A model generated the notes under the pieces. The model did not search any database, had not been told where the DNA came from, and saw nothing but the letters and a program-made list of their open reading frames with translations. Positions 18,933 to 55,877 of a stretch of 64,000 nt of DNA are shown piece by piece (the stretch's first letter is position 1; each line of letters starts with the position of its first letter). The DNA is from Octopus vulgaris. Lineage: Eukaryota. Location of the stretch: the NCBI GenBank assembly GCA_951406725.2, contig OX597829.1:38626001-38690000 (forward strand). Reading direction: 5' to 3'. The translations under genes and the position numbers were made by a program.

Positions 18933-19286
18933 GGATGAATGAATTATCCTTTGTTTACCGTTAACATGGAAAATTCAATAAACAGTTACCAGGGTAGCAA
19001 AATTCACGCAAGTAACACGGATGTAGTGACCTATTCAAAGGTAGAAACTGCAGGTTAATGTGCAGTAATTTGTGTAGTTTAAGTAAATAAATGGAGTTGA
19101 ACGCAGGTGTTATTCAAATTCTTTTACTTTCGACATATGTTTCGAAGACAACATTGGTTTTATTCCAAAGGAATAAACGGTGTAAAATGCAATCTTCTCA
19201 TCAGGAAGGAAGAGAACCTATCGAAACATATGTCGAAAGTAAAAGAATTTGAATAGCATCTGCATTCAACTCCATTTATTTACTTT
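18929..19286 (-). mobile_element. Penelope-like fragment with inverted end duplication, inside (TA)n
   Basis: ~65 bp inverted repeat (19081-19145 / 19221-19285) overlapping a hammerhead motif; (TA)n on both flanks. Confidence 0.65.
19127..19209 (-). ncRNA. Type I hammerhead ribozyme
   Basis: UUC-CUGAUGA-GAAGA[stem II]UCUUC-GAAAC-AUAU-GUC^GAA: intact core, palindromic stem III loop. Confidence 0.8.
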
Positions 19287-19404
19287 ATATATATATATAT
19301 ATATATATAATTCAACTTTGTCATTTATATCACACTAATTTGGCTTGAGAATTCTGTTGAGGTTATATAATTGAGTTAGACATTGAGTATTCTAGACTAT
19401 TCGG

Positions 19405-19469
19405 TGAATATAACATGCTAGGCACTGAGTATTCTGGAAGAATACTCAGTGCCTAACATGTTAAATTCA
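19405..19469. repeat. Near-perfect ~30 bp hairpin
   Basis: TGAATATAACATGCTAGGCACTGAGTATTCT-GGA-AGAATACTCAGTGCCTAACATGTTAAATTCA. Confidence 0.85.
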
Positions 19470-20262
19470 TGAGTAGGAATTTAGTTGGTTCAGCAACTTA
19501 TGATCACAATAAAACCAGGTATTTTTTTATATATTCTTACTACTCTTTCTCTCTCTCTCTCAACATAGACATATATGCATTTCGTGTTGATTTTTGGTAC
19601 CATAGAGATTAATATTTTATGTTGGATAAAGCAGAAAATTAGCAGAATCCTTATAACCCTTGATAAAATCCTTAGCAGCATTTTGTTCATCTTTACATGC
19701 TGAATTCAAATTCCACTAAGGTCAACCTTGTCTTTTATCCCTTTCAGTGTTGATGAAATAAGTACCAGTTAAGTTCTGGGATCGATCTAATCAGCCAACT
19801 CCTCCCCCGAAATTGCTGGCCTTGTGCCAAAACTTGATAACAATATTTTATATTGTGTTGTATATATATATATATCTGTTTGTGTGTCTGTGTTTGTCCC
19901 ACCCCCCCTTGCTTGACAATCAATGCTGGTGTGTTTATGTCCCCGTCACTTAGCAGTTTGGCAAAAGAGAATGATAGAATAAATACTGGCTTACAAAGAA
20001 TAAAGTCCTGGGGCCGATTTGTTCAACGAAAGGCAGTGCTCCAGCATGGCCACAGTCAAATGACTGAAACAAATAAAAGAATATATAATTATGTAGTTCA
20101 GACTCTCTGTCTAAATACTAATATATACACTCATATTTGTATATCTACAAACCAATGTATCAATGTTCTATATATCTATCTACACACCGATATATTTTCA
20201 TGTCTTATATTGATTCTGTGCTATTCAATGTTAATTAAATTCTTTTATTGCTGTTCTTTCAG

Positions 20263-20346
20263 ACAATCGGACCGTGGCTAGCTTGATTGAACAATATGAT
20301 GCAGAGAATAAAAAGTACACAGTCACCCACCAGGAAAAGAAACAAA
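20263..20346 (+). CDS. Candidate internal coding exon (84 nt) of an unidentified gene
   Basis: Pyrimidine-rich acceptor CTGTTCTTTCAG, donor GTAAGA, length a multiple of 3, single open frame xNRTVASLIEQYDAENKKYTVTHQEKKQ. Confidence 0.4.
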
Positions 20347-20389
20347 GTAAGAATTTTATATATATATATATTCTTTTTTTTTTTTTACA

Positions 20390-20625
20390 CTTTCTGTTTA
20401 TTACACAAGATAACATCTGTTCTGTTCATTTTGTTGTGCAAGATAACATCTAGCCTGTTCACTTTGTGTTTATTGTACAAAGTAACGTCTGGCCTATTCA
20501 TTTTTATGTTTATGGTACATGATCATAGCTAGTGTGTTCATTTTTGTACAAGGTACCATCTGGTTCACTTTGTGTTTATTGTACAAGATGACCTTTAGTG
20601 TGTTCACCTCGTGTTTATTGCACAA
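20390..20625. repeat. Degenerate ~35-39 bp tandem repeat
   Basis: Recurring GTTCACTTTGTGTTTATTGTACAAGATAACATCT-like units. Confidence 0.7.
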
Positions 20626-20654
20626 CATTTGAGCTGTTGGTGCTTTTTATGTGC

Positions 20655-20853
20655 CACCTGGCACCTGTGCAGGTGGCATGTAAAAAGCACCCACTACACT
20701 CACGGAGTGGTTGGCGTTAGGAAGGGCTTCCAGCTGTAGAAACACTGCCAGATCAGACTGGAGCCTGGTGCAGCCTTCTGGCTCCCAGATCCCCGGTCGA
20801 ACCGTCCAACTCATGCTAGCATGGAGAACCGACGTTAAACGATGATGATGATG
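20655..20853 (+). mobile_element. Repeat family C 3' part
   Basis: GGTGGCATGTAAAAAGCACCCACTACACTC...GGTTGGCGTTAGGAAGGG...(GAT)n. Confidence 0.85.
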
Positions 20854-52824: not shown

Positions 52825-53210
52825 TCATCATCATCGTTTAACGTCTGCTTTCCATGCTAGCATGGGTTGGACGATTTTGACTGAGGGCTGGCGAGCCAGA
52901 TGGCTGCACCAGGTTCCAATCTTGATCTGGCAGAGTTTCTACCGCTGGATGCCCTTCCTAACACCAACCACTCTGAGAGTGTAGTCGGTGCTTTTAGGTG
53001 CCACCGGCACGGGGCCAGTCAGGTGGCACTGGCAATGACCTCACTCGAATCTTTTACACATGCCACCGGCACGGGTACCAGTAAGGCGATGCTGGTAATG
53101 ATCATGCTTGAATGGTGCCCTTGTACGTGCCACGGGTACAGAAGCCAGTTGGCTGCTCTGGCAATGATCACACTTGCATGGTGGGGTACGGAAGCCAGTT
53201 GGCTGCTCTG
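52825..53210 (-). mobile_element. Repeat family C with internal units
   Basis: C tail in reverse plus TGCCAC-containing units. Confidence 0.8.
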
Positions 53211-53380
53211 GTAAAATAAATACCAGCTGAGTACTGGGGTGAATGTAATTGATTCTCTCCCTCAAAATTCCTGACCTTGTGCCAAAATTTGAAATCATTA
53301 CTATAGTTATTATTTTCATTTCACTTCCCAGTGCTCTTGATTTCACTTGCTCTGATTAATTTAATAAGAACGGACAATAA

Positions 53381-53793
53381 CCTATTTCTTTACTACCCAC
53401 AAGGGGCTAAACACAGAAGGGACAAACAAGGACAAATGGATTAAGTCGATTATATCAACCCCAGTGCGTGACTGGAACTTAATTTATCAAACCCGAAAGG
53501 ATGAAAGGCAAAGTCAACCTCGGAGGAATTTGAACCCAGAACGTAATGGCAGACGAAATACCTATTTCTGTACTACCCACAAGGGGCTAAACACAGAAGG
53601 GACAAACAAGGACAGACAAACGGATTAAGTCGATTACATCGACCCCAGTGCGTAACTGGTACTTAATTTATCGACCCCGAAAGGATGAAAGGCAAAATCG
53701 ACCTTGGCGGAATTTGAACCCAGAACGTAATGGCAGATGAAATACCGCTAAGCATTTCGCCCGGCGTGCTAACATTTCTGCCAGTTTGCCGCC
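53381..53793 (-). mobile_element. Partial tandem dimer of SINE family B
   Basis: Unit repeated at ~180 bp spacing; only the right copy has the 5' head. Confidence 0.85.
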
Positions 53794-54398
53794 TGAACGG
53801 AAAATCACCTATTATCAAAGGTCTCGCTGGGGCTATTACCACAATAGTTAACACTTAAGTAACAATCTCAAGTTCCTAACTATCCCCCATAGACTAGTTT
53901 TCTGAGCAGGTTCTACTCTCATATCAATTCCAGGTCAATGTAATTAGCTAGTTCTTCTCCCAAATTTCAGTCTTCGTGCCTTTAGCAGAAAGGATTATTA
54001 TTAAAGCTGCTGTTTGGCAGAATCCTTAGTGCATTAGACAGAATGCTTAGCAGCATTTCTTCTAACTCTTTACATTCTGAGTTCAAATTTTGCCGAGGTC
54101 GACTTTACATTTCATTCTTTTTGGGGTCAATAAAATAAGTAGCTGTGGAATACTGGAGGTTCAATGTAATCAACTAGTCCCCTCTCCTAAAATTTCAGGC
54201 CTTGTAACTCTATTAGAAACCGTTATTGCTGACTAAGATACAAATGCCCTTCATTTGCATCTACCAGGCAGGATTGTGTATGTAAGGTCTCATTCTGATT
54301 TAGAAGAAAACCATGCCCGTTTTAATTGTTTAGAATGAGTTCCTGGAACATGCATTGTTTATTGTATTTTACATATATATATATGCATATATATATAT

Positions 54399-55476
54399 TG
54401 TTACGGGACCCCCGTGAAAGCTGTTACGGAATCCCACCTGCCGTCGCTCGAACTCGGGATCCCAACAAGTCGAGCGACGACGATTGACCAGGCCCGATCG
54501 ATCGGCGAGAGTTCGCCACGGAACCCAAAGAGGAGAGAGACAACAACAACAACAGCAGCAGCAGGAAGCGACACAGAGGCACAAAGAAACACAGCGGAAG
54601 GCAATTGGCTTACATTTAACGTACTAGTTTATAACACTTTATAATTGTTACATAAAATACATCAAGATACAACAGCATTTAAAGAAAACAACAAATCAAG
54701 AAACAGGTATACAACAGATCAAAGCATTTAAACATGCAGATACAATATAACAACAGCATTCGTTACAATAACAGTTCAGATTGATGCAATATACAGTCCG
54801 GAGACAACAGTTCTGTTTCAAATCACATTAAAGGCATATACAATGTTCATAGACAAATAAGTCCACGTTACAAATCAATGTTCAATTAACGTACACTTCA
54901 CATTAACGTTACAGTTCAAAGGACAATTAACACATATACAGTTCAATGTTCATTAAAGACTACAACAGAGTCTCTCTCTTTCTTTAACAGTTCTGTAACA
55001 CATATCAACACAATTCACATCAACAAGTCCTTTACTCACTTCTGTAACAGTTCGTTATAGTCTCTTTACACAATTCACATATCAACACAATTAACACATA
55101 CTGTACATCAGCCAATACCTCACATTGTATTCCATCTCTATTAGCTGCCTAATCCTCTGTATATCTCTCTCTGTCACAGCAGAACAAACCATTACTAACT
55201 CGCTGTACAATCCAACTGCCAACTGCTTGCCTTGAATCCCAAATCCTGACTGACCGCCCTGATTCCCAAATGCCGACTCTCTCTCCCACTCACAAACTGA
55301 ACTGCTTATTTAAGGGGTGTCTACAACGAACTTTCCCTGACCGGCACAAGGCCAAAGGTCCCCTAAAGGCTCATTACTCTTCCTAAAACAAAGGACTATA
55401 ACTTTGTATGGTAGACTTTCAGTCTCCAAGCCAGCAAAGTAGGTCGCCAGCTCTGTCCTTAAGTTGAACCATAACA
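54399..55476 (-). mobile_element. Solo LTR of an LTR retrotransposon
   Basis: TGTTA...TAACA termini, ATAT on both flanks inside (TA)n, TATA-like CTTAAATAAG on the minus strand, ~1.08 kb. Confidence 0.75.
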
Positions 55477-55699
55477 ATATATATATATACATACATGCAT
55501 ATATATATACATACATATATATATATACATACATACATATATATATACATATATACATACATACATACATACACACACACACATAGGTGAAGGTGTGGTT
55601 ATGTGGTAATAAGCAATGGAAACTGAAAGAAGTCAGTTGTGTATATACATTTATATATAATGTTATGTACGTGTGTGCGTATATATATATATATATATG

Positions 55700-55767
55700 G
55701 CCAGATAACTGAAGAACTCGTGTTGTAGATTTCCACCTTGGCATCTGAAACTCAGTTTTATCTTGGC
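55700..55767 (+). ncRNA. Type I hammerhead-like motif with an insertion before stem II
   Basis: Stem I GCCAGAUAA/UUAUCU(U)GGC; CUGAAGA; AGAU..AUCU; GAAAC-UCA-GUU^. Confidence 0.65.
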
Positions 55768-55877
55768 TACCGAATAATTGTCACATATTATATTTACAGA
55801 TAAATTCCTCTATTTACATAATATTGAGGTCTCTTTCTTTCTTTTGTTATCTTACCGTTTTTACCTATATATATATA

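What the first reader, a model, noticed from the sequence alone, without database searches (positions are those of the whole stretch)
19081..55865. Eleven hammerhead-like motifs from about seven unrelated families within 37 kb
Seen: hammerhead-shaped folds at 19127(-), 21301, 29508, 30218, 30412, 30606, 35536, 40821, 44665, 46656 and 55700. Stems differ completely between families, but the CUGANGA-like...GAAA..NUH layout is shared, and the motifs lie in inverted repeats, tandem repeats or (TA)n tracts. Established: PLEs and non-LTR retrozymes carry such motifs and favour AT-rich targets. Inference: a diverse, high-copy ribozyme-retroelement population hidden in sequence that would be masked as simple repeat or unknown. 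If this is an intron, sense-strand copies could cut the pre-mRNA.
Basis: partly seen in the sequence, partly recalled or inferred. Interest (0 to 1): 0.8.

Follow-up and report, generated by a model that had tools for sequence, protein, structure and literature searches.

The report
Hammerhead relics of Penelope-like retroelements
These are real hammerhead-ribozyme motifs on short, mostly decayed copies of eight abundant repeats that are likely the ends of Penelope-like jumping genes (shown for one family), a known kind of element, and that one family also carries a tRNA-like piece that would serve as its promoter.

Summary
Confirmed as sequence; mostly known biology. All 11 motifs lie where stated and fall into seven genome-wide repeat families (1,395-4,770 first-look candidates each). 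Each family's majority sequence is a type I hammerhead with a short palindromic or near-palindromic helix III, the hallmark of Penelope-like element (PLE) ribozymes. A twelfth motif (9797, U3-A8 core, eighth family) was missed. Only 2 of the 11 copies pass a descriptor, Rfam finds none, and cores decay as fast as flanks (3.9% vs 3.4%). Family F5 (35540, 40825) is the terminal repeat of a Penelope/Poseidon-type RT + GIY-YIG element. The other families were not joined to an ORF but share PLE architecture. Random samples suggest about 10^5 such copies; the window is not clearly enriched. No host exon was shown, so intron cutting is untested. The unusual part: F5's terminal repeat holds a tRNA-Arg-like A/B-box head (after 23 of 24 ORF ends). 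20 of 26 head-bearing copies start at it, and the ORF majority lacks TTTT (P 0.02-0.09), which hints at Pol III transcription. Three families fix core variants (A6U, U4C, mostly A9C).

The parts
9793..9869 (+).
   Evidence: family of 1156 first-look candidates; motif kept in 2 of 2 other copies fetched
19081..19285 (-). F1 element: hammerhead-bearing end preceded by an inverted copy of its own 3' part
19127..19209 (-). F1 hammerhead (core 19204, cut after 19132); core, helix II and 8-nt palindromic helix III intact, one stem I mismatch
21183..21450 (+). F2 element with inverted arms
21301..21345 (+). F2 hammerhead (core 21307); family mostly A9C (12 C, 5 A, 6 gapped of 23); this copy also breaks the first stem I pair
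29502..29660 (+). F3 element between two (TA)n tracts; hammerhead 29519-29556 (core 29523); family U4C (27 of 30); this copy G5A, predicted dead
30169..30733 (+). F4 tandem, 2.9 units of 194 bp; cores 30222, 30416, 30610; family A6U (30 of 30); each unit has a helix II or helix III lesion
35444..35632 (+). F5 copy truncated at the end of the head; hammerhead 35535-35580 with G5A, predicted dead
40584..40690 (-). inverted copy of the F5 3' end joined to the 5' end of the next part
40689..40749 (+). tRNA-Arg-like head of F5; A box 40696-40706; the B box is deleted in this copy
40791..40910 (+). start of the PLE reading frame (ATG 40791), open through the hammerhead to the element's 3' end
40820..40865 (+). 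F5 minimal hammerhead (core 40825, predicted cut after 40860); best-preserved copy, two G-U pairs in helix II
44558..44781 (+). F6 element with inverted arms; hammerhead 44665-44745 (core 44669); helices II and III decayed
46592..46801 (+). single F4 unit after (TA)n; core 46660; helix III broken
55698..55865 (+). F7 element between (TA)n tracts; hammerhead 55701-55768 (core 55709); helix II disrupted
7880..8057 (.). head-to-head pair of F5 heads without the hammerhead

Best explanation
The motifs are type I hammerheads with a short palindromic or near-palindromic helix III in eight dispersed repeat families; one family (F5) is the terminal repeat of a Penelope-type reverse transcriptase/GIY-YIG element, the others are likely ends of other Penelope-like elements or their non-autonomous retrozyme derivatives, and most copies in this window are predicted to be inactive. 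Shown: family folds, copy abundance, F5's place between the ORF's stop and the next ORF's start, inverted 5'-truncated partners, (TA)n ends, and decay at the same rate in cores and flanks. From the literature: a PLE is transcribed from its upstream pseudo-LTR, reverse transcription starts just inside the ORF, and most insertions are 5'-truncated, so the commonest product is a 150-300 bp end that carries the ribozyme. Inferred: two ribozymes in a tandem transcript pair through helix III and cut, probably with help from the element's protein; selection acts on the few source elements, not on the scattered copies; F3, F4 and F7 belong to (TA)n-targeting Neptune-type elements. Inferred for F5: the tRNA-like head in the pseudo-LTR would act as a Pol III promoter (about 40%), and the cut, 70 nt after the in-frame ATG, would remove the start codon and so separate translation from processing.
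For: Majority sequences of F1-F7 have the two core boxes, NUH and helices I-III. Helix III is a perfect palindrome in 4 families, a palindrome around a central A in 2, and imperfect in F2. Unconstrained dimer folding of F1 and F6 gives the double-hammerhead fold. Descriptor vs shuffles: 3 vs 0.08, 12 vs 0.4, 19 vs 0.2. F5 follows RT and endonuclease motifs in L017 and L002. L241 holds a 569-aa frame and L242 a 465-aa frame with RVT_1 (E 2.7e-6, 5.5e-10); the C-terminal part matches a protein named predicted GIY-YIG endonuclease (E 2e-38). The hammerhead follows 17 of 23 ORF ends. The 3' end of F5 runs into the ORF N-terminus in L244; L240 and L218 show part of the junction. Two other hammerhead families, not in the window, follow Neptune-type ORFs and end in (TA)n. 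Extra nucleotide after A9, U3-A8 core, opposite-strand pairs and mostly single truncated motifs are all described for PLEs (PMC4209133). A cut downstream of the start codon and protein-assisted cleavage are described for Anolis Poseidon (PMC11167929).
Against: F1-F4 and F6-F8 were not joined to an ORF. F4 extends at least 700 nt 5' as low-complexity non-coding sequence in 20 fetched copies, without a PLE protein match. The one F7 copy beside a Neptune ORF is inverted and sits in that element's TA tail. Pfam's GIY-YIG model did not recognise the F5 endonuclease and scored the Neptune one below cut-off. The 64 of 64 stem pairs across families are partly by construction; slid controls give 22-30 of 64. 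F3, F4 and F2 fix core changes (U4C, A6U, A9C); U4C and A6C lower activity in other hammerheads (PMC3088659). No cleavage or RNA-end data were obtained.
Confidence: 0.85

Rival explanations
1. F1-F4 and F6-F8 are free-standing non-LTR retrozymes: ORF-less repeats that spread through self-cleaved circular RNAs and borrow PLE enzymes, with no surviving parent ORF.
For: No ORF was reached for these families. F4 forms a 194-bp head-to-tail array in the window and in other loci. A young 359-bp array of intact canonical hammerheads exists elsewhere in the genome (L245).
Against: Most copies are single or inverted pairs with variable 5' ends and a variable 3' tail, not unit-length tandems. F4 has a long 5' extension beyond the 194-bp unit. 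The F4 units carry several TTTT runs and lesions. The two readings overlap, since retrozymes are proposed to derive from pseudo-LTRs.
Confidence: 0.3
2. For F5 only: the tRNA-like head is a passenger, an old tRNA-derived SINE that landed in the 3' UTR. Copies start there because a small hairpin at its 5' edge stalls or folds back reverse transcription, not because Pol III starts there.
For: 17 of the 20 copies that start at the head are joined to an inverted copy, and several are centred on the GCCC-AC-GGGC hairpin. The B box is deleted in the window copy and in L241. Lack of TTTT in the UTR alone is not significant (P 0.63), and in the ORF P is 0.09 under the stricter null. D. virilis Penelope has a LINE-like internal promoter (PMC2377424 abstract). 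A Pol III RNA would be uncapped (recalled).
Against: The head follows 23 of 24 ORF ends, so it is fixed in the autonomous element. The majority has a perfect A box, a 10-of-11 B box and a 33-nt spacer against the published consensus. The ORF majority has 0 T4 runs vs 3.5 expected (P 0.02), while a Neptune ORF has 10 vs 11.4.
Confidence: 0.55
3. The host has kept some copies as intronic ribozymes, or has purged sense copies from an intron, so that strand matters for a gene here.
For: 9 of 10 independent insertions lie on + (p 0.02). There is a splice-acceptor-like stretch on the minus strand near 41064 with a weak 7tm_3 score.
Against: Families were picked from + strand readings; for the three common families the count is 5 of 5 (p 0.06). 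No exon was confirmed: 221 frames gave two sub-threshold Pfam hits, PDB gave no receptor match, and the genome search placed no 7tm_3 match on this contig. 9 of 11 copies are damaged.
Confidence: 0.07
4. The motifs are chance matches in AT-rich, palindrome-rich repeats.
For: Rfam finds none. Single copies mostly fold no better than shuffles. Loose descriptors score near shuffle level.
Against: Eight different families each put both core boxes, NUH and a self-complementary helix III in the right order. Descriptor counts are 30-95 times the shuffle means. F5 sits where PLE ribozymes are known to sit.
Confidence: 0.01

Closest known systems
Minimal type I hammerheads in PLE pseudo-LTRs (Cervera and de la Pena 2014, PMC4209133)
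   Same: Type I topology, absent or palindromic helix III, extra nucleotide after A9 (F2, F4, F5, F6), U3-A8 variant (F8), many families per genome, mostly single truncated motifs and opposite-strand pairs.
   Different: Estimated load is about 10^5 copies for the seven families, decayed copies included, against 2,000-9,000 descriptor hits reported for other genomes (not like for like). Fixed A6U (F4), U4C (F3) and A9C (most of F2) are not mentioned in the two of four parts read; supplements not seen.
Poseidon PLE of Anolis carolinensis, PAc (Frangieh et al. 2024, PMC11167929)
   Same: RT followed by GIY-YIG; the hammerhead overlaps the ORF start and cuts downstream of the start codon; copies end about 110 nt further on; 3' tail.
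   Different: In F5 the in-frame ATG lies 34 nt upstream of the core, so the whole ribozyme is read in frame; in PAc the ORF starts at helix II. F5 also has a tRNA-like head and (AAT)n tract before the ribozyme.
Non-LTR retrozymes (PMC7761336; bioRxiv 10.64898/2026.07.22.740005)
   Same: 150-300 bp non-coding units with type I hammerheads, tandem or solo, related to PLE pseudo-LTRs; the F4 array fits the size.
   Different: The window's array has no two intact consecutive ribozymes; circular RNA was not tested. The preprint covers no mollusc (0 hits for octopus, cephalopod, mollus-).
Schistosome Sm-alpha/Sj-alpha SINE-like elements, and TRIMp3 (Helenus, Cassandra; PMC10886601)
   Same: A promoter followed by a hammerhead (legend in PMC6765202; its tRNA/Pol III nature is recalled); a tRNA-derived Pol III promoter inside a terminal repeat, possibly from a SINE insertion.
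   Different: In F5 the head is fixed in the pseudo-LTR of a protein-coding PLE. TRIMp3 are non-autonomous LTR elements.
Octopus tRNA-derived SINEs (Ohshima and Okada 1994; seen only as a reference-list entry)
   Same: tRNA-derived heads; that two of them derive from tRNA-Arg is recalled, not checked.
   Different: The sequences could not be compared; the F5 head or the whole short F5 copy may already be catalogued there, in SINEBase, Repbase or Dfam.

Membership tests
Type I hammerhead (PLE minimal/palindromic form) | Core CUGANGA...GAAA and NUH in type I order | tested here: met
   Majority of F1, F5, F6, F7 canonical; F8 U3-A8; F3 U4C, F4 A6U, F2 mostly A9C are variants
Type I hammerhead (PLE minimal/palindromic form) | Helices I and II paired with different sequences across families | tested here: met
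   64 of 64 pairs (stem lengths chosen by me) vs 22-30 of 64 when slid
Type I hammerhead (PLE minimal/palindromic form) | Palindromic helix III allowing a dimer | tested here: met
   6 of 7 families palindromic or palindromic about one base, F2 imperfect; dimer MFE is the double hammerhead for F1 and F6 only; F8 palindromic
Type I hammerhead (PLE minimal/palindromic form) | Site-specific self-cleavage | not testable with these tools
   Only assembled contigs were served; they show no RNA ends
Rfam hammerhead families | Score above gathering threshold | tested here: not met
   0 matches in the window
Penelope/Poseidon PLE (F5) | Single ORF with RT followed by GIY-YIG endonuclease | tested here: met
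   RVT_1; C-terminal match to a named GIY-YIG protein; Pfam GIY-YIG itself not hit
Penelope/Poseidon PLE (F5) | Pseudo-LTR: 3' end continues into the ORF start; inverted 5'-truncated copies; hammerhead inside | tested here: met
Penelope/Poseidon PLE (F5) | No Zn-finger-like CxxC linker between RT and endonuclease (present in Neptune/Nematis) | tested here: met
   Absent in L241, present in L297; criterion
Penelope/Poseidon PLE (F5) | RT phylogeny within the clade | not tested
   No tree built; no named reference PLE proteins held
PLE (F1-F4, F6-F8) | Attached RT + GIY-YIG ORF | tested here: inconclusive
   None found in about 30 loci per family (3 for F8) or in 20 longer F4 copies; most PLE copies are 5'-truncated
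PLE (F1-F4, F6-F8) | Inverted truncated partner, 3' tail, microsatellite targeting | tested here: met
   (TA)n after the 3' end: F3 27/28, F4 22/24, F7 14/14, F2 10/17, F1 8/19, F6 1/2; F5 0/6
Non-LTR retrozyme (F4 array) | Two or more consecutive units with complete hammerheads | tested here: not met
   All three units carry lesions; L245 elsewhere meets it
Non-LTR retrozyme (F4 array) | Circular RNA in vivo | not testable with these tools
   No raw reads served
tRNA-derived SINE (short F5 copies) | tRNA-related head with A and B boxes 30-35 nt apart | tested here: met
   Best matches are two genomic tRNA-Arg genes (z 8.3, 8.6, of 32 typed tRNAs); spacer 33 nt; ARAGORN and Rfam tRNA do not score it
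tRNA-derived SINE (short F5 copies) | 5' ends at the head | tested here: inconclusive
   20 of 26 head-selected copies start within 8 nt of it; 5 of 16 unselected pieces do; a hairpin offers another cause
tRNA-derived SINE (short F5 copies) | Pol III transcription | not testable with these tools
   Indirect only: TTTT depletion, P 0.02-0.09
tRNA-derived SINE (short F5 copies) | Target-site duplication and LINE-derived 3' tail | tested here: not met
   The 3' part is PLE pseudo-LTR, not LINE; duplications were not scored systematically

The most novel reading that the evidence does not exclude
An autonomous Penelope/Poseidon retrotransposon has captured a tRNA-Arg-derived Pol III promoter in its pseudo-LTR and has cleared its 2-kb reading frame of TTTT terminators. 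Pol III makes one RNA: head, start codon, hammerhead, ORF. The hammerhead lies wholly inside the coding sequence, so cutting switches the RNA from message to processed template. The short head-to-end copies are then SINEs mobilised by a PLE rather than a LINE. In the same genome, high-copy lineages spread with A6U, U4C or A9C cores, so these cores are either active with protein help or cleavage is dispensable.
Probability: 0.3. Interest if true: 0.7.

Novelty: new variant of a known kind. Interest (0 to 1): 0.42.

Why it matters
The basic result is ordinary: PLE ends with hammerheads litter many animal genomes, and most are dead. Two things lift it. First, the load and diversity here are large (about 10^5 copies for seven families, with further families in every few tens of kb sampled) and invisible to Rfam, so this genome is a ready source of natural hammerhead variants and of a test of whether sense-strand ribozymes are purged from introns. 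Second, F5 ties a tRNA-like promoter, a start codon and a ribozyme into one 230-bp terminal repeat of an autonomous element. If Pol III drives it, it would be a protein-coding retrotransposon on a SINE promoter and a parent-with-SINE pair outside the LINE system, and it would make the open question of what PLE hammerheads do directly testable.

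Tried and rejected
Rfam at gathering and E-value thresholds: no hammerhead; only (TA)n-driven miRNA matches in the rows shown. ARAGORN on the window and on 28 F5 loci: no tRNA gene. Single-copy folding z-scores: uninformative, 1 of 9 below -2. The first repeat scan was swamped by (TA)n, as was one BLAST (redone in 74). Linking F1, F2, F3, F4, F6 and F7 to an ORF by flank extension and by tblastn with Poseidon- and Neptune-type proteins: no link (the middle of the outputs of 25 and 83 was cut from view). 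Sequencing runs: no RNA holder listed on record; only contigs were served, which cannot show RNA ends, strand or level; laying three guessed-RNA runs and one unlabelled run on 37300-46460 showed repeat-derived cover and no GT-AG joint among the 15 joints shown. Search for host exons: 221 frames of 42 aa or more against Pfam, two sub-threshold hits; the 7tm_3 hint at 40867-41208(-) was not backed by PDB or by a genome search. Eighteen hammerhead loci from elsewhere used as queries found no further family in the window. The hammerhead-encoded peptide was found in 1 of 14 homologues with a long enough N-terminus (P0013; 0 of 686 background windows), so it is not shown to be general. PDB search with the 569-aa ORF: no hit. 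The random sample is 160 kb, smaller than planned, so copy-number limits are wide. Lunse et al. 2017 and Arkhipova et al. 2017 were not held; either may describe the core variants. Earlier findings of this scan: none returned.

Full report
SETTING. The window is G000:C16:38626001-38690000 in a 2.8-Gb, 227-contig assembly. About 41% of the window matches other fetched loci.

THE OBSERVATION. All 11 motifs are present and belong to seven families, each with 1,395 to 4,770 first-look candidates in the genome (40 scored, 30 loci fetched each). Rfam finds nothing at gathering score, and no hammerhead among the 150 of 283 rows shown at E<=10. A descriptor without a palindrome rule passes 1-2 copies against shuffle means of 0.1-0.8. 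A descriptor that demands a short palindromic helix III passes 3 in the window against 0.08 (50 shuffles), 12 against 0.4 in 160 kb of random genome (20 shuffles; 7 of 12 from one array) and 19 against 0.2 in 449 kb of flanks (5 shuffles). The third window hit, 9797(+), has a U3-A8 core and is an eighth family (1,156 candidates).

FAMILY FOLDS. The majority sequence of each of F1-F7 is a type I hammerhead. Helix III is a perfect palindrome in F1, F4, F5 and F6, palindromic around a central A in F3 and F7, and imperfect in F2. Folding two copies together without constraints gives the double hammerhead for F1 and F6, not for the other five. All 64 chosen pairs in helices I and II form, with different sequences in each family; the stem lengths were my choice, and slid controls give 22-30 of 64. 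Core variants are fixed or dominant in three families: A6U in F4 (30 of 30), U4C in F3 (27 of 30), A9C in F2 (12 C, 5 A, 6 gapped). U4C and A6C lower activity in other hammerheads (PMC3088659, passages; PMC7151607, passages).

STATE OF THE COPIES. After dropping 13 duplicate rows, 110 of 197 top-scoring copies match their family's core and stems. Core positions differ from the majority at 100 of 2,539 sites, downstream positions at 293 of 8,513 (p 0.25), so inserted copies show no sign of selection on the ribozyme. In the window, 40825 and 19204 pass the descriptor. The other nine carry G5A (29523, 35540), a broken helix III (30222, 30610, 46660, 44669), a broken helix II (30416, 55709) or A9C with a broken stem I (21307).

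DENSITY. The seven families give 7 matches in 160 kb of random sequence and 25 in 374 kb of outer flanks, or about 1.2 x 10^5 (95% limits 0.5-2.5 x 10^5) and 1.9 x 10^5 copies genome-wide. For the three families seen in the random sample the window has 5 independent insertions against 2.4 expected (p 0.10). The window is typical or mildly rich.

WHAT THEY ARE. F5 lies directly after the stop codon of an ORF with PLE RT and endonuclease motifs (L017, L002). A genome search with that RT fragment returned 150 scored matches. L241 and L242 hold frames of 569 and 465 aa with RVT_1, and the C-terminal 240 aa match a named GIY-YIG protein. Of 24 ORF ends in 34 loci, 23 are followed by the F5 head; 17 of the 23 with enough flank also show the hammerhead. 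The 3' end of F5 continues into the ORF's N-terminus in L244, with part of the junction in L240 and L218, so F5 is the pseudo-LTR. There is no CxxC linker, which places it with Penelope/Poseidon by the criterion in PMC8557442 (passages). A second, young lineage with an 811-aa frame and a CxxC linker (Neptune type) has its own U3-A8 hammerhead and ends in (TA)n; L111 shows a third pairing. Neither of those ribozymes is in the window. F1-F4 and F6-F8 were not joined to an ORF, but F1-F4, F6 and F7 show inverted truncated partners, and F3, F4 and F7 end in (TA)n in 27 of 28, 22 of 24 and 14 of 14 copies, against 0 of 6 for F5.

THE F5 TERMINAL REPEAT. It has four parts. (a) A 74-nt head collinear with the genome's own tRNAs, best with two tRNA-Arg genes (z 8.3 and 8.6 among 32 typed genes), with a perfect A box, a 10-of-11 B box and a 33-nt spacer against the consensus in PMC8969392 (passages). 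ARAGORN and Rfam do not score it. (b) An (AAT)n tract. (c) An ATG 34 nt before the core, in frame with the ORF and open for 38 codons in 16 of 28 copies. (d) The hammerhead, predicted to cut 70 nt after that ATG. A homologue from another source, P0013, begins with the same hammerhead-encoded peptide, but it is the only clear case among 14, and a cut downstream of the start codon is already reported for Anolis Poseidon (PMC11167929, parts 1-2 of 4). Of 30 copies chosen for matching the head, 26 could be anchored: 20 start within 8 nt of the head's first base (17 joined to an inverted copy) and 6 run into the ORF side; two of the 6 were reassigned by eye because the walk was ungapped. Of 16 pieces found without that selection, 5 start at the head, 1 reaches the ORF side and 10 start inside. 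The majority over RT loci has no run of four T in 1,707 nt of ORF: 3.5 expected under a codon null (P 0.02), 1.9 under a synonymous shuffle (P 0.09). A Neptune ORF has 10 against 11.4. Single copies have 0-3. This fits Pol III transcription but does not show it; a hairpin at the head's 5' edge could equally fix the 5' ends, and the window's own copy has lost its B box.

MECHANISM. Shown: the anatomy above. From print: PLE pseudo-LTRs carry such ribozymes, which cleave weakly and as dimers (PMC4209133, parts 1-2 of 4; PMC6765202 and PMC7761336, passages). Reverse transcription starts inside the ORF's 5' part, the ribozyme needs protein, and it is not needed for insertion in vitro. Retrozymes derive from pseudo-LTRs, and 1 of 9 dimers tested cleaved (bioRxiv 10.64898/2026.07.22.740005, parts 1-3 of 5, supplements closed). 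Inferred: the window's elements are 5'-truncated insertions made by several PLE proteins and now decay neutrally; cleavage matters, if at all, in tandem source loci.

INTRON IDEA. Nine of 10 independent insertions are on + (p 0.02), but the families were chosen from + strand readings, and the three common ones give 5 of 5 (p 0.06). No exon was confirmed. The idea stays open and, with 9 of 11 copies damaged, has little to act on here.

NOVELTY. Hammerheads in PLEs, and 235 Rfam hammerheads in giant squid (PMC6962438, passages), are in print. Searches for octopus PLE hammerheads or for a tRNA/Pol III promoter in a PLE pseudo-LTR returned no such description; a search including A6U listed no hammerhead paper with that term among the 20 of 39 shown. 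The nearest analogues are TRIMp3 (PMC10886601, abstract and passages) and schistosome SINE-like elements. Repbase, Dfam, SINEBase, Lunse 2017, Arkhipova 2017, Ohshima and Okada 1994 and the papers' supplements were not seen and may hold these families. Verdict: a new variant of a known kind; interest 0.42.

Noticed in passing
L245:2177-4643 (G000:C1 near 20.002-20.005 Mb): Young array of seven 353-359 bp units, five direct and two inverted, 98-100% alike around the motif, each with an intact type I hammerhead; looks like an active non-LTR retrozyme and is the best cleavage-assay candidate seen.
   Followed up: partly
L066, L087, L111, L120, L253: A U3-A8-core hammerhead family with a G-C to A-U change in the first helix II pair between subfamilies; in L111 it follows a Neptune-type ORF end.
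   Followed up: partly
L297:538-2970 and L298-L306: Recently active Neptune-type PLE lineage: 811-aa open frame, several loci with open frames of 800 aa or more, U3-A8 hammerhead in the 3' UTR, (TA)n ends.
   Followed up: partly
window 40867-41208 (-): Splice-acceptor-like stretch near 41064 followed by about 100 nt of open frame, with a sub-threshold 7tm_3 score (E 2e-4). Not backed by PDB or the genome search. If it were an exon, the + strand hammerheads would be antisense to its gene.
   Followed up: partly
window 39585-40160 and 45400-46400: Two related decayed stretches (87% alike in part), one with a weak Mos1-type HTH score; probably mariner remnants.
   Followed up: no
window 53380-53746: 184-bp two-unit tandem of a very abundant repeat with no hammerhead core by the descriptors used.
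   Followed up: no
window 59348-62012: 2.7-kb (TA)/(TACA) microsatellite with extreme C-over-G skew; it causes most of the spurious Rfam miRNA hits.
   Followed up: no
L307-L326: F4 extends 700 nt or more 5' as pyrimidine- and CA-rich sequence containing TTATCTCCC, a 9-mer also present in the Neptune 3' UTRs.
   Followed up: partly
window 14011-14325 (+): 104-aa frame that reads like the C-terminal part of a LINE-type ORF (recalled resemblance; no Pfam hit).
   Followed up: no
L039, L064, L123, L158, L170, L190, L205, L248: Further single hammerheads of other families with palindromic helix III; L205 resembles F4 but keeps A6.
   Followed up: no
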